64,000 bases of DNA. It comes from an uncultured Candidatus Saccharibacteria bacterium (lineage in GTDB: Bacteria; Patescibacteriota; Minisyncoccia; Phycocordibacterales; UBA918). The translations under genes and the position numbers were made by a program. Where the stretch lies: positions 15,641-79,640 of the forward strand of contig CAYXYJ010000002.1 in the NCBI GenBank assembly GCA_964469295.1, read 5' to 3'. Under the pieces are notes generated by a model. It had not been told where the DNA came from. It was given only the letters and a program-made list of their open reading frames with translations, and did not search any database. Position 1 is the stretch's first letter; each line of letters opens with the position of its first letter. This document shows, piece after piece, positions 4,112-54,921 of this stretch.

Positions 4112-5566
4112 ATGGATTCATCAACTTCGCGACCACATCGGTCACGTCCCTTTACTCATTCACGCAATCGTTCTACCTCTCACCGAACCGATCGTAGTAA
4201 TCATCGCTCATCTCGTTCCAGTGGCGTTTTAGTTAGTGGTGCCGACACTGACGACCTTGTTCCAGCACGCAGTAGCGGCCGAACGTATATTATGCGTAAC
4301 GAACGTCCGGGTGTGACCAGTACCTATCGTTCTACTACCAACCGCTCATCAAACGACCGCTCTTCATATCGTGATCGCACCGGTCGAAGCAGTTCATTTA
4401 GTAGTAATCGGGAACGCGGTGGTCATTTTAGTAGCCGCGGCCGTGGTCGGGTAATGCAAACCTTTGACGTATCACAATACATCAACCGTAACCCTGTCGT
4501 CGCCGATACTGAACCAGCCTATGTCCCACAACACACTTTCCATGAATTTGGACTGAACAAGTTTTTAGTGCAAGCGATTGACGATCTGGGCATCACTACC
4601 CCATCACCGATCCAGGATCAAATCATTCCTCATATTTTGGCGGGTAAAGATGTAGTGGGTTTGGCCGCCACCGGAACAGGTAAAACAGCCGCGTTTCTTG
4701 TACCAATCATTCACAAAACCTTAACCGAACGGAACCGCACCACCCTTATCTTGGCGCCAACGCGCGAATTAGCGATTCAGGTCCAGGATGAACTTAAAAA
4801 GCTCACTCCAAAAATGGGAATTTATTCGACGGTATGTGTTGGTGGCACTCATATTCGTCCACAGATTCTCGGTCTAAAAAAGCGTAATCATTTTATCATT
4901 GGCACCCCCGGACGCGTCCAAGATCTCATTGATCGTGGTCATATAAAACCCGGAATATTTAGCACCGTGATATTGGACGAAGCCGACCGAATGCTTGATA
5001 TGGGATTTATTCATGACATGCGTCAAATTTTGAAAGACGTCCCTACCGAACGCGAAACATTATTCTTTTCCGCCACCATGAGTAAAAGTGTTGAGGGCCT
5101 CATTCATGAATTTATGAATGACCCACTGACGGTATCAGTAAAAAAACGTGACGTTACCAGTAGCGTAACGCAAGATGTAGTATTTTACGAACCACACCAT
5201 AAATTTGATTTGTTAGTGACGTTACTTGGTAAACCAGCGCTCGAAAAAGTAATCATTTTTGGAGCAATGAAACACAGTGTCGAAAAACTAGCTCAGGAAC
5301 TGGTTCATGTGGGATTAAAGGCCGATGCCATTCACGGTAACAAAACACACGGGCAACGCCAGCGATCACTACAAAACTTTAAAGGCGGTCGCGTCAATAT
5401 TTTGGTTGCCACTGACGTCGCCGCTCGCGGTATCCACGTTGATAATGTAACTCACGTCATTAATTACGATCTGCCGAGCACTTTTGAAGATTACGTACAT
5501 CGTATTGGTCGGACTGGTCGAGCTGACAAAACCGGCACCGCTCTGACATTTGTCCCCAAACAATAA
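4112..5566 (+). CDS. DEAD-box ATP-dependent RNA helicase with Arg/Ser-rich N-terminal extension
   Basis: Motifs AxTGTGKT, LAPTRELAIQ, DEAD, SAT, HRIGRTGR. ORF track begins at TTG 4079; ATG 4112 is preferred. First ~140 aa is RS-rich low complexity. Confidence 0.9.
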   Translation: MDSSTSRPHRSRPFTHSRNRSTSHRTDRSNHRSSRSSGVLVSGADTDDLVPARSSGRTYIMRNERPGVTSTYRSTTNRSSNDRSSYRDRTGRSSSFSSNRERGGHFSSRGRGRVMQTFDVSQYINRNPVVADTEPAYVPQHTFHEFGLNKFLVQAIDDLGITTPSPIQDQIIPHILAGKDVVGLAATGTGKTAAFLVPIIHKTLTERNRTTLILAPTRELAIQVQDELKKLTPKMGIYSTVCVGGTHIRPQILGLKKRNHFIIGTPGRVQDLIDRGHIKPGIFSTVILDEADRMLDMGFIHDMRQILKDVPTERETLFFSATMSKSVEGLIHEFMNDPLTVSVKKRDVTSSVTQDVVFYEPHHKFDLLVTLLGKPALEKVIIFGAMKHSVEKLAQELVHVGLKADAIHGNKTHGQRQRSLQNFKGGRVNILVATDVAARGIHVDNVTHVINYDLPSTFEDYVHRIGRTGRADKTGTALTFVPKQ

Positions 5567-9478: not shown

Positions 9479-10846
9479 TTATTTTGTTAAGAACTGACGC
9501 CAATGTACTTTTATCTGCTTCCACCAGCGGGCTGGAGTGGATGTCGTAATGAGATGCTGCCACGTTGCTCGTAACAACATTCCTAACGTTAACTCCAAAT
9601 CAACAACAGGACCATCGGTTATTTCGGTCGAGACTGTTTCTGTAACAGCGGTGCGTTGGTTCACTCGTAATTGTAAATCAGAAAGTGCGTTCATGAAAGC
9701 GATATATGCGTCATATGGGGATTGGTACGGACTAAAGTAAGCGTGTACGTCTCCATCCGCAGACCATTTGGTGCACATATAATAAAAATGATCTGACGTT
9801 TGTAATTTGCGCCATTGTTCAATCAAATGAATATCGGCTGTTGCTAATACCGCAGATTCGAGTGCGTAAATTTTCTGGAGTGCGTCACGTTGAATATCAT
9901 TTCCTGTCCAAGCGGTTAAATCACGATCAGTATCCGCCCACGTTAACACCTCCGGTACGTCATACGTTCCAACGGTACTATAGGCGCGCACGGTTTCGGT
10001 TGGTGTTAAAAATGTCGTGTCGGGGTGACGCATGAGCGTTTCCGGCAACACCCGCAAAAAATCAAAAATGCCAGTATCTTCCCATTGGTGTTCACCAAAC
10101 GTTTCATAATCCATAAAAAGATTGATGGTTTGTCCGTCGCCATGATGCGAATGAACCCAACTGGCGTACGTATCGGCTGATAATGGCCAACTTGCCCAGC
10201 CGCGATTGCCAAACCGAAATGCCACATCATCAGATAATTTGTAGTTTTTAAGGAGCACTTTTATTTTTTCCGTTCCGGGTGGTTGGTACAAAAAATTGGG
10301 GCTACGCCAGCCAAGATATTTATCCCACCCCTCAGCCATAATACCGATATATCCATGCTGTTCGCACCATGACGCCAAATCATTGCGGTAGGATAATTCA
10401 GTATTGCGGAACACTTGTGGCGTCACACCAAACAATTGTTTTATTCGCCGGGCGTGCATGGCGACTTGCCTTTCAAATTCAGGAATCGAGTAAAAAAACG
10501 CCAGTGAATGATGGTACGTATCCGCCAAAATTTCCACCCGGCCAGACGCGACTAATTTTTGAAATGACTCCAATACATCGGGGGCGTACGTTTCAAATTG
10601 ATCAAGGGCGGTTCCCGAAAACGACAGAGCAAAACGAAACTCTTCATGAGTATCGAGTAACTCTTGTAAAATTTTATTGGTTGGTCGGTAGGATTTATTG
10701 GCAACTTTTTCGACAATCCGTCGATTATTCAAATCAGAGTCACTGTTGTCGTTAAAATACTGATTGTCGTGTCCAATATCAAACACCTGATACCGCTTGA
10801 CGCGATACGGTTGGTGAACATGAAAATACGGACAAACGGTCAACAT
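9479..10846 (-). CDS. Glycoside hydrolase family 57 protein (alpha-amylase/4-alpha-glucanotransferase-like)
   Basis: N-terminal YFHVHQPYR (GH57 HQP signature); 455 aa. Confidence 0.7.
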   Translation of the reverse strand: MLTVCPYFHVHQPYRVKRYQVFDIGHDNQYFNDNSDSDLNNRRIVEKVANKSYRPTNKILQELLDTHEEFRFALSFSGTALDQFETYAPDVLESFQKLVASGRVEILADTYHHSLAFFYSIPEFERQVAMHARRIKQLFGVTPQVFRNTELSYRNDLASWCEQHGYIGIMAEGWDKYLGWRSPNFLYQPPGTEKIKVLLKNYKLSDDVAFRFGNRGWASWPLSADTYASWVHSHHGDGQTINLFMDYETFGEHQWEDTGIFDFLRVLPETLMRHPDTTFLTPTETVRAYSTVGTYDVPEVLTWADTDRDLTAWTGNDIQRDALQKIYALESAVLATADIHLIEQWRKLQTSDHFYYMCTKWSADGDVHAYFSPYQSPYDAYIAFMNALSDLQLRVNQRTAVTETVSTEITDGPVVDLELTLGMLLRATWQHLITTSTPARWWKQIKVHWRQFLTK

Positions 10847-10852
10847 ATACTA

Positions 10853-12070
10853 TCAAGTGTATTGTACCAGACGATTGTAAAGAGCAATGACTTTCTTGGC
10901 AGCGCCGTGCCATGACAATCGATTGATTTCGTCGCGGGCGTAGGTGCGTAGTTGTCGATGTAATACATCGTACCGTAACGCTGCGAGAATTTGATTAGCC
11001 ATTTCATTTACATCCCAAAAATCAACTTTTAGTGTGTGAGAAAGCACCTCACCCACTCCGGATTGTTTGGAAATGAGAGAGGGTGTACCGTGTTGAATCG
11101 CTTCAAGCGGAACCAGTCCGAACGGTTCTGAGACCGACGGCATGACGACTAGATCAGCGGATTGATACATACGATCGCGATCATCATCCCATAAGGCTCC
11201 AGCAAAAATTACGTTCCCAGACAATCCCATTCTCCCCACTTCATTAATAATTTGAGTAGTCATATCACCCCAACCAGAAATCACAAACACCACAGCAGGG
11301 TCAATATCAACCACTTTGCGGGCCGCCCGAACAAAATAATCGACACCTTTTTGAATAGTGATACGCCCATGATACAAAACAATTTTTTTACCTTGCTCTT
11401 TTAGAGACGCTAAACTGGGAGTGTGACGAATTGGTTCATGAGTGTCACAACCATTATGAATCACCGCAATCTTTTCGGGTGAGACATGGTGCTTTTCAAT
11501 TAAAATTCTTTTTGTGAGGTGACTCACGGTGACAATACTATCAGCCACAGCAAAGCCTTCACATTCAATTTGGTACATCGCCGGATCAACCTGAGCACTG
11601 GCTGCTTGGTCAAAAGAAGTCGCATGAACATGCAATACAAGTGGCTTACCGCTTGCTTTTTTAGCGGCGACTCCAGCGAGATACGATGTCCAATCATGCG
11701 CGTGAATGAGGTCAAATGTTTCGGTTTGCGCTATCAAAGACGCCTGATGCGCAAACCGATGAACTTCTTCCAAAATGGTACGGTGGCGAGTAATTTTTTG
11801 TCCGGTTACGGGATCATAGGTGACACTGTTAACCACTGAATCAGTATTGTGATACGGAACGAGTGACGACGCCACCGCTTTTACCGATACTTTGTATTCA
11901 GTATCAGCAAACAAAAATATTGGTTCCCCCATAGTGTCTTGCTTTTTTGGCAACACAAAAAGTACTTCCACCCCTTCATTTATGATTTCTCTCGTTAGTC
12001 CATAACACGCTACGCCCAAACCGCCGTTTTTAATAGGGGGAAAATCCCAACCAAAAGTCAAAACACGCAT
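10853..12070 (-). CDS. glgA: Glycogen synthase-like glycosyltransferase (GT4/GT5)
   Basis: Likely start MRVLTFGWDFPPIKNGGLGVACYGL at 12070 (ORF extends to 12274). FDLIHAHDWTS and EPFGLVPLEA motifs. Confidence 0.6.
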   Translation of the reverse strand: MRVLTFGWDFPPIKNGGLGVACYGLTREIINEGVEVLFVLPKKQDTMGEPIFLFADTEYKVSVKAVASSLVPYHNTDSVVNSVTYDPVTGQKITRHRTILEEVHRFAHQASLIAQTETFDLIHAHDWTSYLAGVAAKKASGKPLVLHVHATSFDQAASAQVDPAMYQIECEGFAVADSIVTVSHLTKRILIEKHHVSPEKIAVIHNGCDTHEPIRHTPSLASLKEQGKKIVLYHGRITIQKGVDYFVRAARKVVDIDPAVVFVISGWGDMTTQIINEVGRMGLSGNVIFAGALWDDDRDRMYQSADLVVMPSVSEPFGLVPLEAIQHGTPSLISKQSGVGEVLSHTLKVDFWDVNEMANQILAALRYDVLHRQLRTYARDEINRLSWHGAAKKVIALYNRLVQYT

Positions 12071-14552: not shown

Positions 14553-14627
14553 AATTTTTTATAAACTAATAAATTACACAGGCCGTGTTAGCTGCACACA
14601 TAGCTGGCTTGGCAAAGACCTTGCGCA

Positions 14628-14672
14628 GAGATGGTAAACATCATAAAAGCATTTTGTGATGTTTACCATCTC
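14628..14672. promoter_or_regulatory. Perfect 16-bp inverted repeat (operator or RNA-processing hairpin) between ABC ATPase and permease
   Basis: gagatggtaaacatca N13 tgatgtttaccatctc, located in the 200-nt intercistronic gap. Confidence 0.35.
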
Positions 14673-14753
14673 GAGCAGAGAGACAATTTTACTGAACATA
14701 AATGGACTCGTGCCTGCGACAAGATAGCTGTGGGGGCGTCTAACCAACAAAAC

Positions 14754-17279: not shown

Positions 17280-17843
17280 ATGTTATACGAAAAAATCGCA
17301 CTCGAACCAGAAGAAAAAGTAATTACCACCGTGCGTAAACATTGGTTTGTGATTATGCTCGATCTTTTCTCGATTATCTTTATTGGATTATTGCCAGTCA
17401 TCGGCTGTATTATTATTTTAAGCACATCGTTTAATACTGATATTGTAGAAATATTTGCCACCCAATTTCCTACTATTTTATTTTTCCTCGGAGCTTGGCT
17501 TCTTTTGACGACTATGGCCGCCGTATTGTCGTGGACCAACTACTATTTGGATTTATGGGTGATTACTGACCGCCGAATTATTGTCATCGAACAAATTGCT
17601 TTTTTCAACCGCAAAGTAAGCAATTTCCGACTCGAACGAATGCAAGATATAAAAGTATCGGTTAACGGAATTATTCCCACTCTTCTAAACTACGGTACGT
17701 TACGAGCCCAGACCGCGAGCGCATCTGAAAGTAACTTCACGTCACCCTATTTACCCGATCCGCGTGGACTCCAAGCCCTGATTCAAACGGCAATGGATGC
17801 CCGTCTCGAGGTACTCGGTAACAACCCGGTCAAAGTTGACTAG
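17280..17843 (+). CDS. Bacterial PH-domain (bPH_2/YdbT-like) membrane protein
   Basis: Two N-terminal TM helices then a PH-like region, as in YdbS/YdbT. Confidence 0.5.
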   Translation: MLYEKIALEPEEKVITTVRKHWFVIMLDLFSIIFIGLLPVIGCIIILSTSFNTDIVEIFATQFPTILFFLGAWLLLTTMAAVLSWTNYYLDLWVITDRRIIVIEQIAFFNRKVSNFRLERMQDIKVSVNGIIPTLLNYGTLRAQTASASESNFTSPYLPDPRGLQALIQTAMDARLEVLGNNPVKVD

Positions 17844-17867
17844 ATTGTTAAAGATATAGCCATACTG

Positions 17868-17957
17868 AAAAAAGTGCGGGGACTGGTAGCTGAGATCGTA
17901 AGACTAGCATAGCGGCTTTGGAGCGCAATCGAAGATACCAGTCCCCGCACTTTTTTC
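17868..17957 (+). repeat. Structured hairpin element copy 1 (conserved core, terminator-like)
   Basis: 21-bp outer stem aaaaaagtgcggggactggta / taccagtccccgcacttttttc enclosing core ctgagatcgtaagactagcatagcggctttggagcgcaatcgaag; T-run follows. Confidence 0.5.
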
Positions 17958-18023
17958 AACGGTCTTCAACATACACCTTGCCAACGTCATATTTCTCCCC
18001 TACAATCAGACCATTCACCTGTT

Positions 18024-19286
18024 ATGACTCAAAAATTTCTCTCCACTGACCCGTATAAAGGGGTACGCGATTTTTATCCTGAAGACATGGCCGTAGAGCG
18101 GTATATCTTTGATGTTTGGAGTCATACCGCCGAAAGTTTTGGCTTTGAACGATATGACGCTTCGGTACTGGAACCATCAGAGTTATACAAAAGTAAAGGT
18201 GCCGAGAACGAAGAAATGGTGAATGAACAAACCTATACTTTCATTGACCGCGGCGATCGCGAAGTGACTCTTCGTCCGGAAATGACCCCCACCGTGGCAC
18301 GTATGGTCGCTGGCAAACGTCGAGAGTTATCCTTTCCGGTACGCTGGTACAGCATTCCCAATCTTTTTCGCTATGAACGACCGCAACGGGGACGATTGCG
18401 AGAACACTGGCAACTTAATTGCGATATCTTTGGCGCCAACGATTACACCGCGGACGTGGAAATCATCGCTCTGGCCCATCGTATAATTGTGAATTTCGGC
18501 GCACAAACAGAAATGTTTGAAATTCGCATTAATGATCGCACTGAAATGCGTACAAAGTATGCCTCATTTGGTGTCACTGACACCAACACCCAAGATGCAA
18601 TCACCCGTTTGAACGATCGTTTTCACAAAATTAATGCTGATGAATATAAATCAGCCCTCTTTGATATCGTTCATAACCAAACCACAGTAGATACCATTTA
18701 CACACTGGTATCCGGTGGTGATACCACCGATACCAACACCGTCGTTGACGGGCTGCGAGAATTGGGTATTACCAATGTAAAAATCGATCGTTCGATCGCT
18801 CGTGGCTTTAATTATTACACCGGCACCATTTTTGAAATTTTTGATGTCTCTGGCGAAAACAATCGTTCGATGCTTGGCGGTGGTCGCTATGATAACTTAA
18901 CAGCGATGTTTGGTGATGAACCAATTACCGGTATTGGTTTTGGTATGGGTGATGTCACCATGCGTGACTTCTTGGAAACGCACGATTTATTGACTGCCAA
19001 TATCACGGCACCAACATTGATGGTTATTCCTACAGACGATTCACTCAATTTAACTGCGCAAAAAATTGCGATGGAATTTAGACACAAAGACATCAGTGTC
19101 GCTACCGATATCAGTACTAAAAAAATTGGGAAAAAAATTGCTGACGCCGCTCATCGATTTGTTGAATACATACTTGTGGTTGGCGACAATGAAAGAGCCA
19201 GTGGCACCTACACCCTTAAAAATCTGATTACTGAGACTGAAGTCACTGGAACAATTACCGATATCATTAACGAGATGAGCGAGTAA
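18024..19286 (+). CDS. hisS: Histidine--tRNA ligase
   Basis: Class II motifs: RYERPQRGRLREHWQ (motif 2), GGGRYDNL (motif 3). Confidence 0.9.
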   Translation: MTQKFLSTDPYKGVRDFYPEDMAVERYIFDVWSHTAESFGFERYDASVLEPSELYKSKGAENEEMVNEQTYTFIDRGDREVTLRPEMTPTVARMVAGKRRELSFPVRWYSIPNLFRYERPQRGRLREHWQLNCDIFGANDYTADVEIIALAHRIIVNFGAQTEMFEIRINDRTEMRTKYASFGVTDTNTQDAITRLNDRFHKINADEYKSALFDIVHNQTTVDTIYTLVSGGDTTDTNTVVDGLRELGITNVKIDRSIARGFNYYTGTIFEIFDVSGENNRSMLGGGRYDNLTAMFGDEPITGIGFGMGDVTMRDFLETHDLLTANITAPTLMVIPTDDSLNLTAQKIAMEFRHKDISVATDISTKKIGKKIADAAHRFVEYILVVGDNERASGTYTLKNLITETEVTGTITDIINEMSE

Positions 19287-19377
19287 TTTCACTTTCTATC
19301 AGTTGACTGTTTTTACCGGTGGTACGAATCTAACAATATCCCTTGCCAGATTATGTTATACTGCAAGCCACCTTTCT

Positions 19378-19953
19378 ATGCGTTATCTCGTATTTGATCT
19401 CGAAACTCAAAATATTTTTGAAGATGTTGGATCCAGCGATCCGGCCGCATTGGATATTTCGGTCGCTAGTTTTTATGATAGTGCCACTGATACATACCTC
19501 ACCGTAACAGTGAATGACCTGCATCAGGCATGGCCACTTATTGAACAAGCAGATGCGTTAGTTGGCTACAATAGTAATCATTTTGATATTCCGCTTCTTA
19601 ATAAATATTACCCCGGTGACCTCACCCATATCAAAAGTATTGATTTACTCGAAAGTATTCGTCAATCACTTGGTCGGAGACTGCGACTTGATAGTGTGGC
19701 CGAAGCCACCATTGGCGCAAAAAAATCTGGACACGGGTTACAGGCGGTCAGGTGGTGGAAGGAAGGGAAAATTGATGAGATAAAAAAGTACTGTGAACAA
19801 GATGTAAAAGTCACAAAAAAAGTTTTTGACTATGCCTTGGCGCACGGTCATGTAAAATTCAAAGATGGCAGTCGCAAACGAGAAATCCCCCTTGATACTA
19901 CTACGTGGATGATTAAAGAGGATTCGGCCATGACCCACTCTTTACTTTTTTAG
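19378..19953 (+). CDS. DEDDy-type 3'-5' exonuclease
   Basis: Start MRYLVFDLET (19378). Exo I FDLET, Exo II YNSNHFDIPLL, Exo III YCEQDV. Confidence 0.5.
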   Translation: MRYLVFDLETQNIFEDVGSSDPAALDISVASFYDSATDTYLTVTVNDLHQAWPLIEQADALVGYNSNHFDIPLLNKYYPGDLTHIKSIDLLESIRQSLGRRLRLDSVAEATIGAKKSGHGLQAVRWWKEGKIDEIKKYCEQDVKVTKKVFDYALAHGHVKFKDGSRKREIPLDTTTWMIKEDSAMTHSLLF

Positions 19954-19997
19954 TAAAATAAAAGTTTACAAGGATTTAAAATGTACTTTGATTAAAT

Positions 19998-20079
19998 GAA
20001 AAGCCAAATGGGTGTCTGAGATCGTCAGACTAGCCTAGTGGCTTTGGAGCGAGATCGAAGCTACCCATTTGGCTTTTTC
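19998..20079 (+). repeat. Structured hairpin element copy 2
   Basis: Outer stem gaaaagccaaatgggt / acccatttggctttttc enclosing core ctgagatcgtcagactagcctagtggctttggagcgagatcgaag. The core is ~85% identical to copy 1 while the outer stems differ but stay complementary. Confidence 0.5.
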
Positions 20080-20223
20080 AGTTAATTGCGCTATATAGAA
20101 ATGTTGTGTCAAATATGCTGAAGTAGTGTGTCGTGTCCGGTGCTATGCCTCACACAACGGCAGACATGAAAGAGCGTCCTTGGCGGACGCTCTTTATCTA
20201 TATTTGAACACTCGTATCTTCCT

Positions 20224-21033
20224 CTAATTTAATGCAAAAATATAAATGACCATGAGTGCCAAAAACAAGCGGTACCAGATAAATGGCCAAAGAGAATATT
20301 GGCGTACAAAGGTAATCATAAAATGAATCGCCAACAATCCCACAAAAAACGCCGTGCCAGCACCAATCGCAATCACGGATACCGAAATGTCTCCCCCAAC
20401 TGCCAATAATTCCAATAACTTTTTGATACCTGCACCAAGCAAAAGTGGCACCGCTAACATAAATCCAAAACGAGCGGCTTCGCTACGGGTAAGACCCATA
20501 AGCATTCCCCCTGCAATCGTTGCCCCTGATCGAGAGAATCCTGGAATTAATGCCAAACATTGAAATAATCCCACTTTCACTCCGGTAGCTAACGTAATTT
20601 CACTATGGGGAACAGTATTGTAATATCGCCACTCAGCAAAAATAAACAGCAATGATCCAGCCACGAGCGATAGAGCGACCAATAGTGGATTGCGGAATAC
20701 TGTCGCCATGATGTCTTCGAGTAAAAGCCCTACGATAACAGCCGGAACCGTTCCCACCAACAAAGCGACAACGCGAGCAACTTCACGCTCGTCTACCGGA
20801 AGACGCCCGAGCTTCCGCAATAATGCTTGAAACATCAACCAAAAATCTCGTCGAAAATAAAGCAGCACAGCGGTGGCAGTCGCTAGATGTAACACTGCAT
20901 CAAACGCAAGCGAGCTATTTGATAACACCCCTAAAAAATCTGTTACTAATATTAAATGTCCGGATGATGAAACCGGTAAAAATTCAGTGATACCTTGAAT
21001 AAGACCTAGAATAATCGCGTCTAACGTTGTCAT
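20224..21033 (-). CDS. uppP: Undecaprenyl-diphosphatase
   Basis: MTTLDAIILGLIQGITEFLPVSSSGHL N-terminus; 8 TM segments. Confidence 0.85.
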   Translation of the reverse strand: MTTLDAIILGLIQGITEFLPVSSSGHLILVTDFLGVLSNSSLAFDAVLHLATATAVLLYFRRDFWLMFQALLRKLGRLPVDEREVARVVALLVGTVPAVIVGLLLEDIMATVFRNPLLVALSLVAGSLLFIFAEWRYYNTVPHSEITLATGVKVGLFQCLALIPGFSRSGATIAGGMLMGLTRSEAARFGFMLAVPLLLGAGIKKLLELLAVGGDISVSVIAIGAGTAFFVGLLAIHFMITFVRQYSLWPFIWYRLFLALMVIYIFALN

Positions 21034-36737: not shown

Positions 36738-39494
36738 TTATTCTGCTGTATTTTCACCATCACTCAATGCATCGCCACTCTGACTTGGTGCGGATTCCAG
36801 GCTAGCATCTGACGACGTTTCTACTGCATCACCCGTCGACACTGCAGTATCTTCATCCGTCGCTTCAAAAGCATCGTTTTCCTGATTGTCTTCGTCAACA
36901 TCATTATTACTGGTCGCACTGTCATTAGCCCCACCTGAAGAAACCGGTACTGATACTTCCTGTAAAGTTTCTTCGACAGCGTCTAACCGGCTGCGTAATT
37001 CAGCATTTTCGACTTCGAGTTCAGTAATACGATCTTCATGTCCGCTGACGGTCTGCCATAATTCCTTGATGGCTTCGACCACTACCGCTACCATATTTTT
37101 GGTATTAAGCGACCAATAATCACCTCCCTTACTGACTACTTCTGGTAACACCGTATCAACTTCCTGCGCAATAAATCCAATTTCAGTTTGCTCGCCAAAC
37201 CGTTCTGCATCTTTCCATTCATACCGCACGCCCCGCAACTGTAAAACTAAATCAAGCGCATCTTCGATTTCAACCACATTTTTCTTTAATCGAGCATCTG
37301 ACGCATCGCGAATAATATTTCCGTTGGCGTCAGTGGTAAGGTTCGTGGCGCCACCAAGCAAATTTGATGCCAGAATCGTACCATCAACTGTCAATGCTGT
37401 TGATGGTGTTGATGTACCAATACCGACATGGTTGGTACCACCATTTACATACAAGGTCGGTACTGAGGAAGACCCGACTTGGAAATTACCCCAGACATCC
37501 AAAGTAGTTGCTGGTGAAGAGGTGCCAATACCGACAAATCCAGTTGTGGCCGGAATACGCATCGCTTCTAACGATGCCGATACACCGTAGTTAAATACAA
37601 TCGCTGCGTTAGCGTTCGGATTAATGTTGGTCGAACTACGCAAGACTAACTGATTCCCTTGACCAGAACCACCACGAAGAAGTGGAGCAGTTACTGTACC
37701 AGTAAACGTTGGAGACGCACTGAAAACGATAGAACCAGCATTACCAGTTTCGTCAGTGATGGCGTTTGCTAGGTTTGCACTCGACATCACAGCCAACGTC
37801 GTTGATACACCACTACCCAACCCACTAATTCCTGTCGCTATTGGTAGATTCGATGCGTTGGTGAGATCAACAGTTGATGGTGTACCCAAATTCGGCGTCA
37901 CCAAAGTTGGCGACTGAGCAAATACCGTTGCCCCAGTTCCCGTTTCATCAGACAGCAAACCAGCCAATTGTGATGATGTAGTGAATAACGGACTTAACCC
38001 CAGTGATGAAGTCGACACAGTAAGAGTATTTCCAGCCCAACTTAATCCGGTACCGGTGACAATGCGCGTACTTGGCGTATTGTAAAAATTATTCCAGTTG
38101 GTAGTTGACGCTACCAGCGAAATTTCGTAGCCGGAAGAAAGCACCAATTCATCCGACGCCAACGCCAATCCAGTAGCACCAACACTAAAATTGGTGTGAG
38201 CGGAAATATCAACCGACGCACTATCTAACGTACATTCGATACTGTCACAACTGAAACTACCGAAATCCGTTACAGCCATTTCCGTTGGATCAATATATGA
38301 TCCAAACGCTGACCCACCAGAAATACCAAGCGATGATGTCGCTACCCACGTTGGTACCCCACCAACAACAGACAACACATCGCCAGTGTTTCCAATCGCG
38401 CGTCTTGCGAGTACGCCTGCTCCCGATGAGTACAAAATATCACCAGTGACATATACAGAGAGTCCTGTGCCGCCATAGGTCGTTCCGATTACGTCACCAT
38501 TCCACAACCCATCGGTGATCGTCCCCGTCGCCGATACCAAAAATTGCGAACCGGCGGTTGGACCAACTGTGAGGAGTGATGATGGAGTGGTGGTGCCGAT
38601 ACCCACATTCCCCGTCAATCGATACACATCCGTACCATTACCGTCCCAAGAACTACTGGCATTACCCGCCGTCAGTGATGAACCATTCCAATACAATGAC
38701 CCGCCTTGCGCGTACAAGCGATTAGTAACTGTGCCCGGCGTAAAATTATCGAGATACAACGCCCCGCCGACCACAGACAATAATTCTGGTGGCGTAGTGG
38801 TGCCAATACCTAAACGACCATTCGCGTCCACAAATAATCCTTCATCGTCACCATCACCAGACAAATGATAATTCCCAAGCGCCAGATTAGAACCAATTGG
38901 TCCAGCAAATACCGGCAACGTCAGGGTGGCGCCTGACAATTCGGAAACGTGAATATCATCAAATTTCGCTTTTACGTAATCAGACAATGAATCACTTGTG
39001 CGTTCGGCTTGTTTGTCAATTAACGTTTCTAGTCTGTTGATTTCGTGATGCCATAATTCGTTGCTTTGCAACAATAATCCAGTTTGTCGCCACAGCCACA
39101 TCGTATTCAAATCGCTATCAGCAGAAGATACCGTATATGAGTTTGATAACGGTCGATTTCCAGTTTCGATTGGTGATAGTGTGGTGGTGGCAACACCACG
39201 AACTTGTGCCGTTGGTGTAAAAAGAGAAATATCCGGCTCGCCAGAAGTAATGACCGTAGAGTAATCGGTTGCGTGGTTTACTGGTGTAGGAGCAGTAGAT
39301 ATATATCGATCACTAATGAGTGGAGCCTCGTAGCAATGATCCAGCCATCCCAACAAGACCGGAAAAGTTTGACACCACGTTTGCACCGAAAACCACGACG
39401 CCGCCACAAGCTGTGGTAGCAAAAAACCAACGGCTACAACCGATACGATTATCGTACACAAGAAAAAAGATTGAGGCCTGTCACAACCATTCAT
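36738..39494 (-). CDS. Surface-fibre-like protein with C-terminal phage tail-fibre intramolecular chaperone (peptidase S74) domain
   Basis: N-terminal TM/signal; long Gly/Thr/Ser-rich repeat region (GIGTTTP, LYWNGSSLTAG); ~37060-37310 encodes SDARLKKNVVEIEDALDLVLQLRGVRYEWKD...EIGFIAQEVDTVLPEVV...VVEAIKELW, matching the S74 endosialidase-chaperone consensus; coiled coil and acidic tail follow. Confidence 0.55.
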   Translation of the reverse strand: MNGCDRPQSFFLCTIIVSVVAVGFLLPQLVAASWFSVQTWCQTFPVLLGWLDHCYEAPLISDRYISTAPTPVNHATDYSTVITSGEPDISLFTPTAQVRGVATTTLSPIETGNRPLSNSYTVSSADSDLNTMWLWRQTGLLLQSNELWHHEINRLETLIDKQAERTSDSLSDYVKAKFDDIHVSELSGATLTLPVFAGPIGSNLALGNYHLSGDGDDEGLFVDANGRLGIGTTTPPELLSVVGGALYLDNFTPGTVTNRLYAQGGSLYWNGSSLTAGNASSSWDGNGTDVYRLTGNVGIGTTTPSSLLTVGPTAGSQFLVSATGTITDGLWNGDVIGTTYGGTGLSVYVTGDILYSSGAGVLARRAIGNTGDVLSVVGGVPTWVATSSLGISGGSAFGSYIDPTEMAVTDFGSFSCDSIECTLDSASVDISAHTNFSVGATGLALASDELVLSSGYEISLVASTTNWNNFYNTPSTRIVTGTGLSWAGNTLTVSTSSLGLSPLFTTSSQLAGLLSDETGTGATVFAQSPTLVTPNLGTPSTVDLTNASNLPIATGISGLGSGVSTTLAVMSSANLANAITDETGNAGSIVFSASPTFTGTVTAPLLRGGSGQGNQLVLRSSTNINPNANAAIVFNYGVSASLEAMRIPATTGFVGIGTSSPATTLDVWGNFQVGSSSVPTLYVNGGTNHVGIGTSTPSTALTVDGTILASNLLGGATNLTTDANGNIIRDASDARLKKNVVEIEDALDLVLQLRGVRYEWKDAERFGEQTEIGFIAQEVDTVLPEVVSKGGDYWSLNTKNMVAVVVEAIKELWQTVSGHEDRITELEVENAELRSRLDAVEETLQEVSVPVSSGGANDSATSNNDVDEDNQENDAFEATDEDTAVSTGDAVETSSDASLESAPSQSGDALSDGENTAE

Positions 39495-53579: not shown

Positions 53580-53679
53580 AAAAAATGTACTAATCTACTA
53601 CTGTCTCCCAGTATACCCTGGATGAGTATCATCACGGGTCTTTAATCCACAAAGTCCCGCCAAGAGAGCGGGACCGTGA

Positions 53680-53943
53680 TTACTTCGTTGGTTCTGGAGC
53701 AGCCTCACCAGTTTGCGCTTTAATCGCATCGCGTTTAGCTTGCATCCGTTCGGTTCGAGCTTTGGCTTTAGCCGCCAAATCCATCACCATCCGACCGTTG
53801 TAAAAACCACAAGCAAGACACATGTGATGAGGTCGATGCATCGCGCCACAGTTCTTGCACACTGCCATTTCTGGGGTGGTAAGACCGTGATGTGAGCGTC
53901 GGTTGGCGGTGTGTGACCGCGTATGTCGCATTCGTACTACCAT
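53680..53943 (-). CDS. rpmF: 50S ribosomal protein L32 with Ala/Lys-rich C-terminal extension
   Basis: MVVRMRHTRSHTANRRSHHGL...CKNCGAMHRPHHMCLACGFYNG matches L32; ORF-track start 53952 is TTG, ATG 53943 preferred. Confidence 0.8.
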   Translation of the reverse strand: MVVRMRHTRSHTANRRSHHGLTTPEMAVCKNCGAMHRPHHMCLACGFYNGRMVMDLAAKAKARTERMQAKRDAIKAQTGEAAPEPTK

Positions 53944-53952
53944 AATGGGCAA

Positions 53953-53980
53953 AACTATAGCAAATTAGCAAAAAATTGCA
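53953..53980 (-). promoter_or_regulatory. Promoter for rpmF (near-leaderless)
   Basis: minus strand: TTGCAA, 16 nt, TATAGT; ATG 9 nt downstream. Confidence 0.5.
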
Positions 53981-53989
53981 AGCTTATTG

Positions 53990-54640
53990 CCGATGTAGAG
54001 CCCTAACGGTAGCTGTTTGATTGCGTCCGAACCCAGGCCGGTACACACTCTCCGTTCCCTGCCAAGCGACTACACTATGAGTGTTTACCGGCCTGGGTTC
54101 TCTATAAATCTTCAGTGCGGGCGACTGAAATATGAAAAAGCCGCCTTGTGGAAGGGCAGGTAGGGTCTCGACCAAACCGCAACAAACCAGGCAAAAGAAA
54201 AGGCCGCCTTGTGGAAGGGCGACCGAAGGCCGGTAGAACTAATATCGGGGTGACTAGCTAGTTCCACCCCTTTTGCGCGACACTCTCACGCGACCCGAGG
54301 CCACGAGCAAGCGTCGCCACGCTCGATGGTGGCCTTAAGGCGCGCGCGAGCTGCTTCTAGAACCAGCTGGTGCGCTACGGCCAACCTGACCGGACAAGTT
54401 TTGCGCGAAGCTGGAGGATTCAACATATCTCCCCCCTTCACACACACACCATTATTGTAATAGTAGCACCTGGTGCAAATGCTTCCTTCTGCCTTCTTTT
54501 GACTTTTCTCCACGCCCCTGCTCCTCTAACTTTTTATGGAGATTGGTATGAGGGTCGGGTATCAAAGTCGCTTAGGCCTTTTAATAGTAACACATTATTA
54601 TAAATAATACAATAGCGACCGGGTGATGACTTAAAATGAA
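53990..54640. other. GC-rich structured non-coding island (candidate ncRNA(s) or acquired element)
   Basis: Hairpin with 22-bp arms 54029-54050 / 54079-54100; two minus-strand terminator-like hairpins with identical loop cuuccacaa at 54128-54160 and 54193-54224; plus-strand ggggtg...cacccc tttt hairpin 54247-54274; (CA)5 run; strongly GC-enriched versus flanks. Confidence 0.35.
54286..54426 (-). CDS. Candidate GC-rich micro-ORF F (46 aa)
   Basis: GGGGGGAG before ATG 54426; MLNPPASRKTCPVRLAVAHQLVLEAARARLKATIERGDACSWPRVA; lies inside the GC-rich island; speculative. Confidence 0.2.
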   Translation of the reverse strand: MLNPPASRKTCPVRLAVAHQLVLEAARARLKATIERGDACSWPRVA

Positions 54641-54642
54641 TA

Positions 54643-54680
54643 TTAAAAGGGCCGGATTCCGCAAGGCGGAATCCGGCCCA
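54643..54680 (-). terminator. Rho-independent terminator (minus strand) after micro-ORF D
   Basis: gggccggattccgc aa ggcggaatccggccc; on the minus strand followed by ttttaatat. Confidence 0.55.
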
Positions 54681-54691
54681 ATCGTCGTCCA

Positions 54692-54862
54692 TCAGGCGAC
54701 GAACTGCCGGAAAAACGGATTCATCTGCCACAGCGACAGGCCGATCTTCATTTGCGCCGCCGCCAGCGCCATGACGGCGTCATGGGCGATGGCCACCAGC
54801 TGGAGATGCGGCGGCGTCACACCAAAGCCGCTGTGCGGAATCGTATTGCCCACATGGGTCAT
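54692..54862 (-). CDS. Candidate GC-rich micro-ORF D (56 aa)
   Basis: ATG 54862; MTHVGNTIPHSGFGVTPPHLQLVAIAHDAVMALAAAQMKIGLSLWQMNPFFRQFVA; own terminator; below the ORF-track length cutoff; no clear SD. Confidence 0.3.
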   Translation of the reverse strand: MTHVGNTIPHSGFGVTPPHLQLVAIAHDAVMALAAAQMKIGLSLWQMNPFFRQFVA

Positions 54863-54921
54863 ATTTTACACTTTCTTTTCTGTTGCACTTCATCCATCGC
54901 TGACGATGGCGAAGTCACACC

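What the first reader, a model, noticed from the sequence alone, without database searches (positions are those of the whole stretch)
17868..20079. Two-copy structured RNA-like element with conserved core and covarying outer stems bracketing hisS and the exonuclease gene
Copies at 17868-17957 and 19998-20079 share a ~45-nt core (ctgagatcgtMagactagcMtagYggctttggagcgMRatcgaag). Their outer stems are completely different in sequence yet each is perfectly self-complementary (21 bp and ~15 bp). Both end in T-runs. Compensatory change in the stems with a conserved interior suggests a functional RNA structure: an sRNA, a specialised terminator family, or a protein-binding element rather than a simple repeat. 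The copies flank hisS and the DEDDy exonuclease in direct orientation.
Basis: seen in the sequence. Interest (0 to 1): 0.6.

Follow-up and report, generated by a model that had tools for sequence, protein, structure and literature searches.

The report
Conserved hairpin module capping terminator hairpins
Two transcription-terminator hairpins beside the hisS and exonuclease genes of an uncultured Patescibacteria (CPR) bacterium each carry the same 55-base folded module at their tip; the module recurs in a few related genomes, matches no catalogued RNA family, and its function is unknown.

Summary
Copies at 17866-17958 and 19998-20078 share a 55-nt core (17885-17939 and 20011-20065, 85% identical). 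Each core is enclosed by unrelated, perfectly paired arms with a 5' A-run and a 3' T-run. The pair is not isolated. Covariance models and inspection found 11 copies in 8 of roughly 90 related Paceibacteria/Kaiserbacteria-like hisS loci. None match Rfam. The module is an irregular rod: a GGCC-UAGC-GGCC tip, purine-rich non-canonical loops (tandem G.A) and short helices that covary between genomes. They are ordinary bidirectional terminator hairpins of this genome, and the module is nested in their loops. Three results support this. Relatives carry plain terminators at the same spot. Homology between copies stops abruptly at the module edge. One relative holds a "palindromised" copy, which shows DNA-level arm-to-arm conversion. 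Copies cluster around hisS and the exonuclease gene and all lie on the hisS strand. Differences between the window copies mostly avoid paired positions, so the module seems selectively maintained. The function is inferred only: terminator plus a protein-binding cap, or a hairpin-loop-invading element. It is a new variant of known kinds and of moderate interest.

The parts
17866..17958 (+). Copy 1: complete 93-nt hairpin (outer terminator stem plus module), 3' of the bPH-domain gene
   Evidence: MFE -50.7 kcal/mol, z -7.9; R2 80.3 bits
17866..17884 (+). Copy 1 outer 5' arm (TGAAAAAAGTGCGGGGACT): A-run plus GC stem, unique to this copy; interpreted as the host terminator arm
   Evidence: same architecture as the plain terminators of the window
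17885..17939 (+). Copy 1 module (55 nt). Basal helix GGTA/TACC; 1x1 mismatch (17889 and 17935); CU/AG; tandem GA (17892-3 and 17931-2); P2 (17894-9 with 17923-30); J5' AAGACU; P3 hairpin AGCA-UAGC-GGCU (17906-17917); J3' UUGGA
17940..17958 (+). Copy 1 outer 3' arm with T-run (AGTCCCCGCACTTTTTTCA)
19998..20078 (+). Copy 2: complete 81-nt hairpin, 3' of the exonuclease gene and convergent with uppP
   Evidence: z -5.7; R2 80.3 bits
19998..20010 (+). Copy 2 outer 5' arm (GAAAAGCCAAATG), unique to this copy
20011..20065 (+). Copy 2 module (55 nt, 85% identical to copy 1; P3 hairpin AGCC-UAGU-GGCU at 20032-20043)
20066..20078 (+). Copy 2 outer 3' arm with T-run (CATTTGGCTTTTT)
17280..17843 (+). bPH-domain protein gene whose 3' end copy 1 follows
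17978..18006 (+). hisS promoter (TTGCCA-17-TACAAT), downstream of copy 1 and conserved in relatives
18024..19286 (+). hisS (histidyl-tRNA synthetase)
19378..19953 (+). DEDD-type 3'-5' exonuclease gene (RNase_H_2 / DNA_pol_B_exo2), with its own extended -10 (TGTTATACT, 19354-19362)
20224..21033 (-). uppP/bacA, convergent with copy 2

Best explanation
Each copy is an ordinary bidirectional intrinsic terminator of this genome (A-run, GC-rich perfect stem, T-run) with a conserved 55-nt structured module nested in its apical loop. The result is one long hairpin within a hairpin.

Shown:
- The module is a member of a small family found in related Paceibacteria.
- The family consists of a GGCC-UAGC-GGCC tip, a purine-rich non-canonical segment (5'-AGAC/5'-GGAG), a short covarying helix ending in U.G, and usually a second tandem G.A loop.
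- Its own helices covary between genomes.
- The flanking outer stems differ because they belong to different host hairpins.

Inferred:
- The module spreads locally by DNA-level copy-and-paste or palindrome processes (insertion at hairpin apices, arm-to-arm conversion), mainly within the hisS-exonuclease neighbourhood.
- It is kept by selection as a single-stranded fold of the core-sense strand.
- In the window the two composite hairpins still terminate and insulate transcription: of the bPH gene before the hisS promoter, and of the exonuclease gene against convergent uppP.
- The module's most likely role is a protein-docking or 3'-end-protecting cap on the terminated RNA. This last step is the least supported.
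For: Family and structure:
- The core is unique to the two sites in the window.
- CM searches over the window plus about 100 fetched hisS loci (about 1.66 Mb in total: 1.41 Mb, 0.11 Mb, 0.14 Mb) give 9 distinct hits. Seven have E<1e-11. Two more are in L107, which is duplicated in L108.
- Two variants were found by eye, L019b and L022.
- There is no Rfam match.
- Covariation: 93% of cells are paired against 63% in shuffles and 35-45% in slid controls. 18 of 22 pairs change on both sides. In P2, 5 of 6 pairs do.
- Subfamily B differs from A by a matched loss on both strands (AGAC/GGAG becomes AGC/GAG). L070 turns a G.A into U-A.

Outer stems as host terminators:
- The window contains at least 12 plain A-run/T-run perfect palindromes with loops of 0-5 nt.
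- In L019 the module sits inside A5-CGGCGG...CCGCCG-T5 directly after the exonuclease stop codon. L096 and L092 align on both flanks but carry plain terminators there.
- L019a and L022 share the core plus a 12-bp stem of their own. Homology then stops, and the two copies lie in different intergenic regions (IGRs).
- L107 11378-11457 is a copy whose 3' half is the exact complement of its 5' half.
- L005 and L008 share one outer stem around unrelated interiors.

Terminator role:
- Both window copies follow stop codons and end in T-runs.
- The hisS promoter lies downstream of copy 1.

Selection and strand:
- 6 of the 8 differences between the window copies are at unpaired positions, and 1 is A-U to G.U.
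- The core-sense fold is more stable in 7 of 9 copies. G.U pairs number 26 against 9. Internal G.U in outer stems number 5-6 against 0 A.C.

Locus association:
- 8 of 11 copies lie in the three IGRs that touch hisS or the exonuclease gene. All 11 are on the hisS strand.
Against: - No empty-site allele with identical outer stems was found for either window copy. The closest relatives have only 76-83% HisS identity, and their terminators are not alignable.
- No target-site duplication and no transposase, reverse transcriptase or HUH gene occurs in the window or beside the other copies.
- In L065 and L070 the whole hairpin, outer stem included, is extra relative to relatives, so a pre-existing host hairpin is not demonstrated there.
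- A gradient of stem similarity (L019a/L022 closer to each other than to L107) also fits slow compensatory divergence.
- Three copies (L027, L070, L081) are antisense to the flanking genes and lack T-runs, so terminator function is not universal.
- Termination, transcription and protein binding are all untested.
- The alignment used for pair counts was fitted to the model and contains one reversed row.
- All related loci are centred on hisS, which is an ascertainment bias.
Confidence: 0.5

Rival explanations
1. A purely cis-acting structured RNA of the hisS-exonuclease locus, such as a 3'-UTR or intercistronic stabiliser, an RNase processing site or a regulator. It would be inherited vertically, with outer stems that diverged by compensatory substitutions and no mobility involved.
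For: Copies sit at syntenic IGRs around hisS and the exonuclease gene in distant lineages and always on the hisS strand. There is strong covariation and strand-specific G.U pairing. Differences avoid paired sites. A gradient of stem similarity runs among L019a, L022 and L107. RNase III and RNase R genes are present in the window.
Against: The element is absent from the closest relatives at all three IGRs. Its position shifts between IGRs in related genomes: L019a lies after the exonuclease gene, L022 and L107 before it. Homology boundaries are abrupt. A palindromised copy exists. Copies in L027, L070 and L081 are antisense to the local genes.
Confidence: 0.25
2. A selfish, non-autonomous hairpin element recognised as single-stranded DNA, mobilised in trans by an HUH/RAYT-, Xer- or IS-type enzyme encoded elsewhere. 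It would target hairpin loops and have no host function.
For: Distribution is patchy. The element nests in different hairpins. Paired copies lie close together in direct orientation in three genomes: window, L019 and L107. A nested insertion occurs in L022. Strand-specific folding holds even where the sense strand is not the mRNA strand. All copies are on one strand relative to the syntenic block.
Against: No transposase lies in the 64 kb window or in the loci. No target-site duplication is seen. Copy number is very low: 2 in 64 kb and 11 in about 1.66 Mb. The window copies are 15% diverged, which does not look like a recent burst. No hits occur in the phage, plasmid or viral collections.
Confidence: 0.15
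3. Independent small-RNA genes, each with its own promoter and terminator.
For: Each is a discrete, stable hairpin ending in a T-run in the window. Orientation is independent of the neighbouring genes in three loci.
Against: No conserved -35/-10 lies upstream of the copies. The hairpins begin 22 and 44 nt after the stop codons. Several copies lack a T-run.
Confidence: 0.05
4. Two unrelated terminators that resemble each other by chance, or guide-RNA-like units of a TIGR-Tas stem-loop array.
For: Both are terminator-shaped. TIGR stem-loop arrays have variable palindromic stems with conserved motifs in the loops (PMC12045711).
Against: By chance, 0 matches were expected in shuffles against 2 found, and homologues exist in 7 other genomes. 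For TIGR, the loops here are conserved rather than carrying variable spacers, there is no tandem array, and no Nop/Tas gene is in the window.
Confidence: 0.02

Closest known systems
Rho-independent (intrinsic) terminators, including bidirectional ones
   Same: The position is right after stop codons. There is an A-run, a GC-rich perfect stem and a T-run. The architecture of the outer stem matches the plain terminators of the same window.
   Different: The loop is replaced by a conserved, folded module of 47-55 nt. A standard terminator scan (loop 3-8 nt) does not call these hairpins. Some family members lack T-runs.
Intergenic palindromic repeat elements: REP/BIME, ERIC, Correia (CREE), RUP/BOX, RPE. 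These are MITE-like hairpins that are co-transcribed and can act as terminators or RNase III targets. IS1397-type insertion into REP loops is also relevant. This comparison rests on my own knowledge.
   Same: These are small non-coding palindromes in intergenic regions. Their distribution is patchy, they nest, and they tolerate internal insertions. They lie at the 3' ends of genes.
   Different: In the known elements the ends (TIRs or stems) are conserved and copies are numerous. Here the centre is conserved, the outer stems are not, copy number is 1-2 per locus, and no target-site duplication or cognate transposase is seen.
Candidate structured RNA motifs of the Rfam / Weinberg-Breaker type (hairpins with conserved internal loops; tandem G.A or kink-turn-like protein-binding motifs)
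   Same: There are covarying helices, conserved purine-rich internal loops and a strand-specific fold.
   Different: No Rfam 15 family matches, even at E<=10. The inner G.A motif has a 2-nt rather than a 3-nt bulge and is absent in subfamily B, so it is not a canonical k-turn.
TIGR-Tas stem-loop arrays and IS110 bridge RNAs (PMC12045711)
   Same: Variable palindromic stems flank loops that hold short conserved motifs. These systems are reported in phages and parasitic bacteria.
   Different: Those loops carry variable guide spacers, the units form tandem arrays, and they lie next to a Nop-domain or IS110 gene. None of this holds here.

Membership tests
Intrinsic terminator | GC-rich stem-loop immediately followed by a U/T-run, downstream of a stop codon | tested here: met
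   Copy 1 begins 22 nt after the bPH stop codon and ends in T6. Copy 2 begins 44 nt after the exonuclease stop codon and ends in T5.
Intrinsic terminator | Short apical loop (3-8 nt) | tested here: not met
   There are 47 nt between the continuous outer arms, and the scan does not list either hairpin. The interior does fold into further helices.
Intrinsic terminator | Actual termination of transcription | not testable with these tools
   No RNA-seq or Term-seq data were available.
MITE / REP-like repeat element | Terminal inverted repeats or stems conserved among copies | tested here: not met
   The outer arms of the two window copies are unrelated. Only the inner GGTR.CT/AG.YACC ends of the 55-nt module are shared. 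blastn-short searches with the arms find nothing else.
MITE / REP-like repeat element | Target-site duplication and a cognate transposase/RAYT | tested here: not met
   No direct repeats flank the hairpins. No transposase or HUH domain was found among 47 window ORFs scanned against Pfam. The rest of the genome was not seen.
MITE / REP-like repeat element | Many copies per genome | tested here: inconclusive
   There are 2 copies in 64 kb and 11 in about 1.66 Mb of hisS-centred loci. Whole genomes could not be searched.
Any Rfam 15 family | Score at or above the gathering threshold | tested here: not met
   There are 0 hits in the window at gathering and 0 at E<=10 over 17800-20250. Six other loci gave only a tRNA.
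Kink-turn | C-stem, 3-nt bulge, tandem sheared G.A/A.G, NC-stem | tested here: inconclusive
   Subfamily A has CGU-AA-GA-CU opposite UG-GA-GCG, which gives the right polarity but a 2-nt bulge. L019b has no bulge, and subfamily B lacks the 5' GA. The 3-D geometry cannot be tested here.
hisS leader (T-box or other 5' cis-regulator) | Located in the transcribed 5' leader, downstream of the promoter | tested here: not met
   The conserved hisS promoter at 17978-18006 lies downstream of copy 1. Copy 2 is not upstream of any co-oriented gene.
TIGR stem-loop array unit | Tandem array next to a Nop-domain tas gene, with variable spacers in the loop | tested here: not met
   There are two solitary units 2.1 kb apart, their interiors are conserved, and no Nop domain is present.
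Integron attC | R''/R' core sites (RYYYAAC / GTTRRRY) at the base of the hairpin, with an integrase nearby | tested here: not met
   The bases of the hairpins are A-run/T-run with no GTTRRRY. No integrase is in the window.

The most novel reading that the evidence does not exclude
The module may be a new kind of tiny element defined by a conserved centre rather than conserved ends. It would propagate by invading the apical loops of terminator palindromes, through single-strand hairpin recognition or template switching. Or it may be a CPR-specific RNA cap on terminators that recruits an unknown protein to control 3'-end fate at the hisS-exonuclease locus. Either would be a mechanism not described for bacterial terminators.
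Probability: 0.2. Interest if true: 0.7.

Novelty: new variant of a known kind. Interest (0 to 1): 0.45.

Why it matters
Patescibacteria have tiny genomes with little non-coding DNA and almost no characterised non-coding elements. A selectively maintained, strand-specific structured module that rides on terminator hairpins would matter in one of two ways. It could be a new RNA-protein recognition element governing mRNA 3' ends in these organisms. Or it could be an example of how palindromes grow and exchange inserts at their apices. The case also carries a methodological warning: different, perfectly paired stems around a conserved core can arise from nesting in different host hairpins and are not in themselves covariation. 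The same loci hold at least three further uncatalogued hairpin families, so this clade looks like a good hunting ground for RNA-motif discovery.

Tried and rejected
Collection scans:
- The pattern GACTAGCNNNNNGGCTTTGGAGCG gave 0 hits in genome contigs and 0 in viral contigs.
- It gave 4 hits in metagenome contigs. These were chance matches in 69% GC contigs with no hairpin.
- In hindsight the pattern was too strict, because L065 reads GACAGGC...GGCC.
- Looser viral scans gave 0 hits and 5 hits without the hairpin architecture.
- Phage and plasmid BLAST gave no match.

Known-family and function readings:
- Rfam searches were negative.
- tRNA and tmRNA searches found none in the window.
- I checked the sequence by eye for hammerhead, other small ribozymes, a tRNA D-arm or tRNA-His mimic, SRP, an L1-binding site and a tetraloop receptor. 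None fits.
- The GGAG in J3' as a Shine-Dalgarno sequence was rejected, because no start codon follows and GGAG is absent in subfamily B.
- A conserved promoter upstream of the copies was not found.
- An origin or terminus nearby was ruled out, because GC skew is uniformly negative across the window.

Retrieval and alignment attempts that led nowhere:
- Empty-site searches with the arm sequences found nothing.
- The window's own contig (110,794 bp, NCBI) could not be retrieved.
- MAFFT alignments A4 and A6 were not structural enough for pair counting, so a CM-derived alignment was used instead.
- ThrRS homologues could not be linked to the contigs that carry the element.
Full report
OBSERVATION

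Copy 1 is a 93-nt hairpin at 17866-17958 and copy 2 is an 81-nt hairpin at 19998-20078, both on the + strand. They share a 55-nt block, 17885-17939 and 20011-20065, at 85% identity. The degenerate core pattern occurs exactly twice in the window and never in 100 dinucleotide shuffles. An exhaustive nhmmer scan finds no third copy in 64 kb.

Outside the block the arms are unrelated. Even so, they pair without a mismatch over 19 further bp in copy 1 and 13 in copy 2. Each hairpin starts with an A-run and ends with a T-run. Predicted folds are far more stable than shuffles, with z of -7.9 and -5.7. The only correction is that the conserved block is 55 nt, not about 45 nt.

CONTEXT

- The window is a housekeeping chromosomal region. 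It carries rpoB/C, sigA, dnaG, dnaE, RNase III, RNase R, KhpA, NusB and ThrRS.
- The organism is an uncultured Patescibacteria bacterium. Its HisS relatives are labelled Paceibacteria, Parcubacteria or Kaiserbacteria.
- GC content is 46%.
- The gene order MTase - bPH - hisS - DEDD exonuclease - uppP(-) - dsbA is conserved in all 80 related loci fetched.
- Copy 1 begins 22 nt after the stop codon of the bPH-domain gene. The conserved hisS promoter (TTGCCA-17-TACAAT, 17978-18006) lies downstream of it. Copy 1 is therefore at a 3' end and is not a hisS leader.
- Copy 2 follows the exonuclease gene and faces the convergent uppP gene.
- The window contains at least a dozen plain terminators of one style: A-run, GC-rich perfect stem of 19-23 bp, loop of 0-5 nt, T-run. 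The outer arms of both copies have exactly this style.

A FAMILY, NOT A PAIR

No Rfam 15 family matches, even at E<=10. Searches of related hisS loci found homologues as follows.

- nhmmer first found L065.
- A hairpin and regex survey found L019a, L070 and L081.
- Two covariance models found L027 and confirmed seven canonical copies at E<1e-11 in 1.41 Mb.
- Further relatives of L019 added two copies in L107, which is duplicated in L108.
- Two structural variants were seen by eye. L019b has a larger tip. L022 has a roughly 65-nt insertion.

In total there are 11 copies in 8 genomes, out of roughly 90 sampled. The closest relatives of the window (HisS 76-83% identical: L005-L008, L016, L057, L085, L086) have none at the three intergenic regions (IGRs) concerned and carry ordinary hairpins there.

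STRUCTURE

The module is an irregular rod with these features.

- A tip hairpin, GGCC-UAGC-GGCC (AGCM-UAGY-GGCU in the window).
- A purine-rich non-canonical segment, 5'-AGAC facing 5'-GGAG.
- A helix P2 of 3-6 bp that always ends in U.G.
- In most copies a second tandem GA/GA loop, a 1-6 bp helix and a 1x1 mismatch.

On the CM-derived alignment, 93% of cells pair against 63% in shuffles and 35-45% when partners are slid. 18 of 22 pairs change on both sides, including 5 of 6 in P2. Two caveats apply: the alignment is fitted to the model, and one row is the reverse strand of copy 1.

The register of the purine segment has two supports. Subfamily B (L019a, L027, L070) has a matched one-nucleotide loss on both strands, AGC facing GAG. 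L070 replaces a G.A with U-A.

The fold is strand-specific. The core-sense strand is more stable in 7 of 9 copies, by up to 15 kcal/mol. G.U pairs number 26 against 9 on the opposite strand. Internal wobbles in the outer stems are 5-6 G.U against 0 A.C. This runs against the direction expected from the window's GC skew.

The inner motif has kink-turn polarity but a 2-nt bulge, and it is not universal. I do not file it as a k-turn.

WHY THE OUTER STEMS DIFFER

The evidence favours nesting of the module in different host hairpins.

1. The outer arms look like this genome's plain terminators.
2. In L019 the module lies inside A5-CGGCGG...CCGCCG-T5 directly after the exonuclease stop codon. L096 and L092 align with L019 on both flanks but have plain terminators at that spot: AAAGACGCGCCC-TGC-GGGCGCGTCTTTT and AAGGCCGCGCC-TGAA-GGCGCGGCCTTTT.
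3. L019a and L022 share the core plus 12 bp of their own stem (GAATGTTSWTTY). Homology then ends, the outer stems are unrelated, and the two copies lie on opposite sides of the exonuclease gene.
4. L107 11378-11457 is a copy whose 3' half has been replaced by the exact complement of its 5' half (CTGTTCTAGCGAGGGGTAAG...CTTACCCCTCGCTAGAACAG). This is a DNA-level arm-to-arm conversion.
5. L005 and L008 share one outer stem around unrelated 52-nt and 71-nt interiors. This shows that hairpin apices in this clade take up inserts.

True covariation exists, but it is in the module's own helices between genomes.

Counter-evidence is as follows. No empty allele with identical stems was found for either window copy. 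L065 and L070 are whole-hairpin insertions relative to their relatives. There is no target-site duplication and no transposase.

DISTRIBUTION

- Eight of 11 copies lie in the three IGRs that touch hisS or the exonuclease gene. L027 and L070 lie in the ABC ATPase-permease IGR 3-4 kb away, and L081 lies 6 kb upstream.
- Binomial P is 3e-5 to 4e-3, depending on how many IGRs are counted as available. All loci were chosen because they contain hisS, so ascertainment is biased.
- The window itself is the least biased sample: 2 of 2 copies flank hisS and the exonuclease gene, and none occurs at the other terminators in 64 kb.
- The same IGRs are general hotspots. They hold 1.7-3.9 kb gene insertions in L026, L068, L083 and L096, and several other hairpin families.
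- All 11 copies are on the hisS strand. Six to eight are sense to the upstream gene and three are antisense to the local genes.
- Three genomes carry two copies 0.3-2.1 kb apart in direct orientation.
- The 8 differences between the window copies are distributed as follows: 6 at unpaired positions, 1 an A-U to G.U change, and 1 opening the loop-closing pair of the tip (P about 0.02-0.05).
- The core stays at least 80% identical across genomes whose HisS is only 55-65% identical. This argues for purifying selection or for transfer.

MECHANISM

Shown:
- A conserved, strand-specifically folded module.
- Its position at the apex of terminator-type palindromes.
- DNA-level palindrome dynamics.
- Clustering at one locus.

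Inferred:
- In the window both composite hairpins terminate transcription. They insulate the hisS promoter from the bPH operon and end the exonuclease transcript against convergent uppP.
- The module duplicates locally by insertion at hairpin apices or by template switching.
- It is retained because it does something in single-stranded form. The most plausible role is as a docking site or 3'-end cap on RNA. The tandem G.A loops are typical protein-binding features, and RNase III and RNase R are encoded in the window. Alternatively it is the recognition structure for its own propagation.

I put about 0.5 on the composite statement, about 0.25 on a purely vertical cis-RNA with compensatory stems, about 0.15 on a purely selfish ssDNA-hairpin element, and about 0.05 on an independent sRNA. 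Chance resemblance and TIGR-like units are effectively excluded.

COMPARISON AND NOVELTY

The element works like a terminator with an added cap. It behaves in evolution like the intergenic palindromic repeats (REP/BIME with IS1397-type loop insertions, ERIC, Correia, RUP; this comparison is from my own knowledge). It fails their defining features: conserved ends, target-site duplication and high copy number. It is not in Rfam. It is therefore a new variant of known kinds. It is a real, uncatalogued family with an unusual architecture (conserved centre, host-derived stems), but without a demonstrated function. Interest is moderate.

LIMITS

- The source contig could not be retrieved.
- All comparative sequence is hisS-centred.
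- No expression data were available.

Noticed in passing
L008 about 5230-5480 (two copies); also L005, L006, L007, L016, L057, L086, L041, L059, L009, L017: A second uncatalogued long-hairpin family. It has a GA-GCCGTAC-loop-GTACGG-TGA tip and conserved flanks GCTTTAGMTRCWAGGCGCR / AACGCAGWAGATGAAGTRATTT. It occurs downstream of uppP, in the hisS-exonuclease IGR or in the ABC IGR. The L057 copy carries a nested insert. There is no Rfam hit.
   Followed up: partly
window 14612-14690 (hairpin 14628-14672); L048, L027, L076 at the same IGR: The ABC ATPase-permease intergenic region holds a third motif with the opposite logic. Its flanks are conserved (GACCTYGCGSAG ... YGAGCRGAGA) and surround a hairpin whose sequence varies between genomes. 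It may be an intercistronic regulatory RNA of the ABC operon on the - strand.
   Followed up: no
L022 about 9905-9990, L107 11275-11365, L096 about 11290-11360, L092 hisS-exonuclease IGR: A fourth hairpin family has the interior CACGCGCTACGCGCAA..GGGGAAGTG. In L022 its GGAAGTGCTC is complementary to GAGCACTTCC inside the insert of the neighbouring module copy. This suggests a possible inter-hairpin pairing.
   Followed up: no
L107 11378-11457 (= L108 7786-7865): This is a 'palindromised' half-module. The 3' half of the element has been replaced by the perfect complement of the 5' half, which is direct evidence of arm-to-arm conversion in these palindromes.
   Followed up: yes
L005 807-894 and L008 2534-2636: Orthologous hairpins in the bPH-hisS IGR share the outer stem GCCYGTTAGAARTA but enclose unrelated interiors of 52 nt and 71 nt.
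   Followed up: partly
window 53580-54921: A 1.3-kb stretch lies between the NusB-NUDIX and RNase HII genes and has no ORF of 110 aa or more. It contains a long hairpin (54029-54100) and a repeated GCCGCCTTGTGGAAGGGC. There is no meaningful Rfam hit even at E<=1. This is unusually large for a compact CPR genome.
   Followed up: partly
hisS-exonuclease IGR in L026 (3.1 kb), L068 (3.9 kb), L083 (1.7 kb), L096 (Tricorn-like plus M23 peptidase genes): The IGR between hisS and the exonuclease gene is a recurrent insertion hotspot for foreign genes in this clade.
   Followed up: no
window 19354-19380 and homologous sites in relatives: The exonuclease gene has an extended -10 (TGnTAYAMT) only about 8-16 nt before its ATG. 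This suggests a leaderless or near-leaderless mRNA.
   Followed up: no
window 1-64000: No tRNA, rRNA, riboswitch or any other Rfam family reaches threshold in 64 kb. An ORF of 918 aa at 36738-39494 carries a Peptidase_S74 (endosialidase chaperone) domain, which is typical of phage tail fibres, within an otherwise housekeeping region.
   Followed up: no
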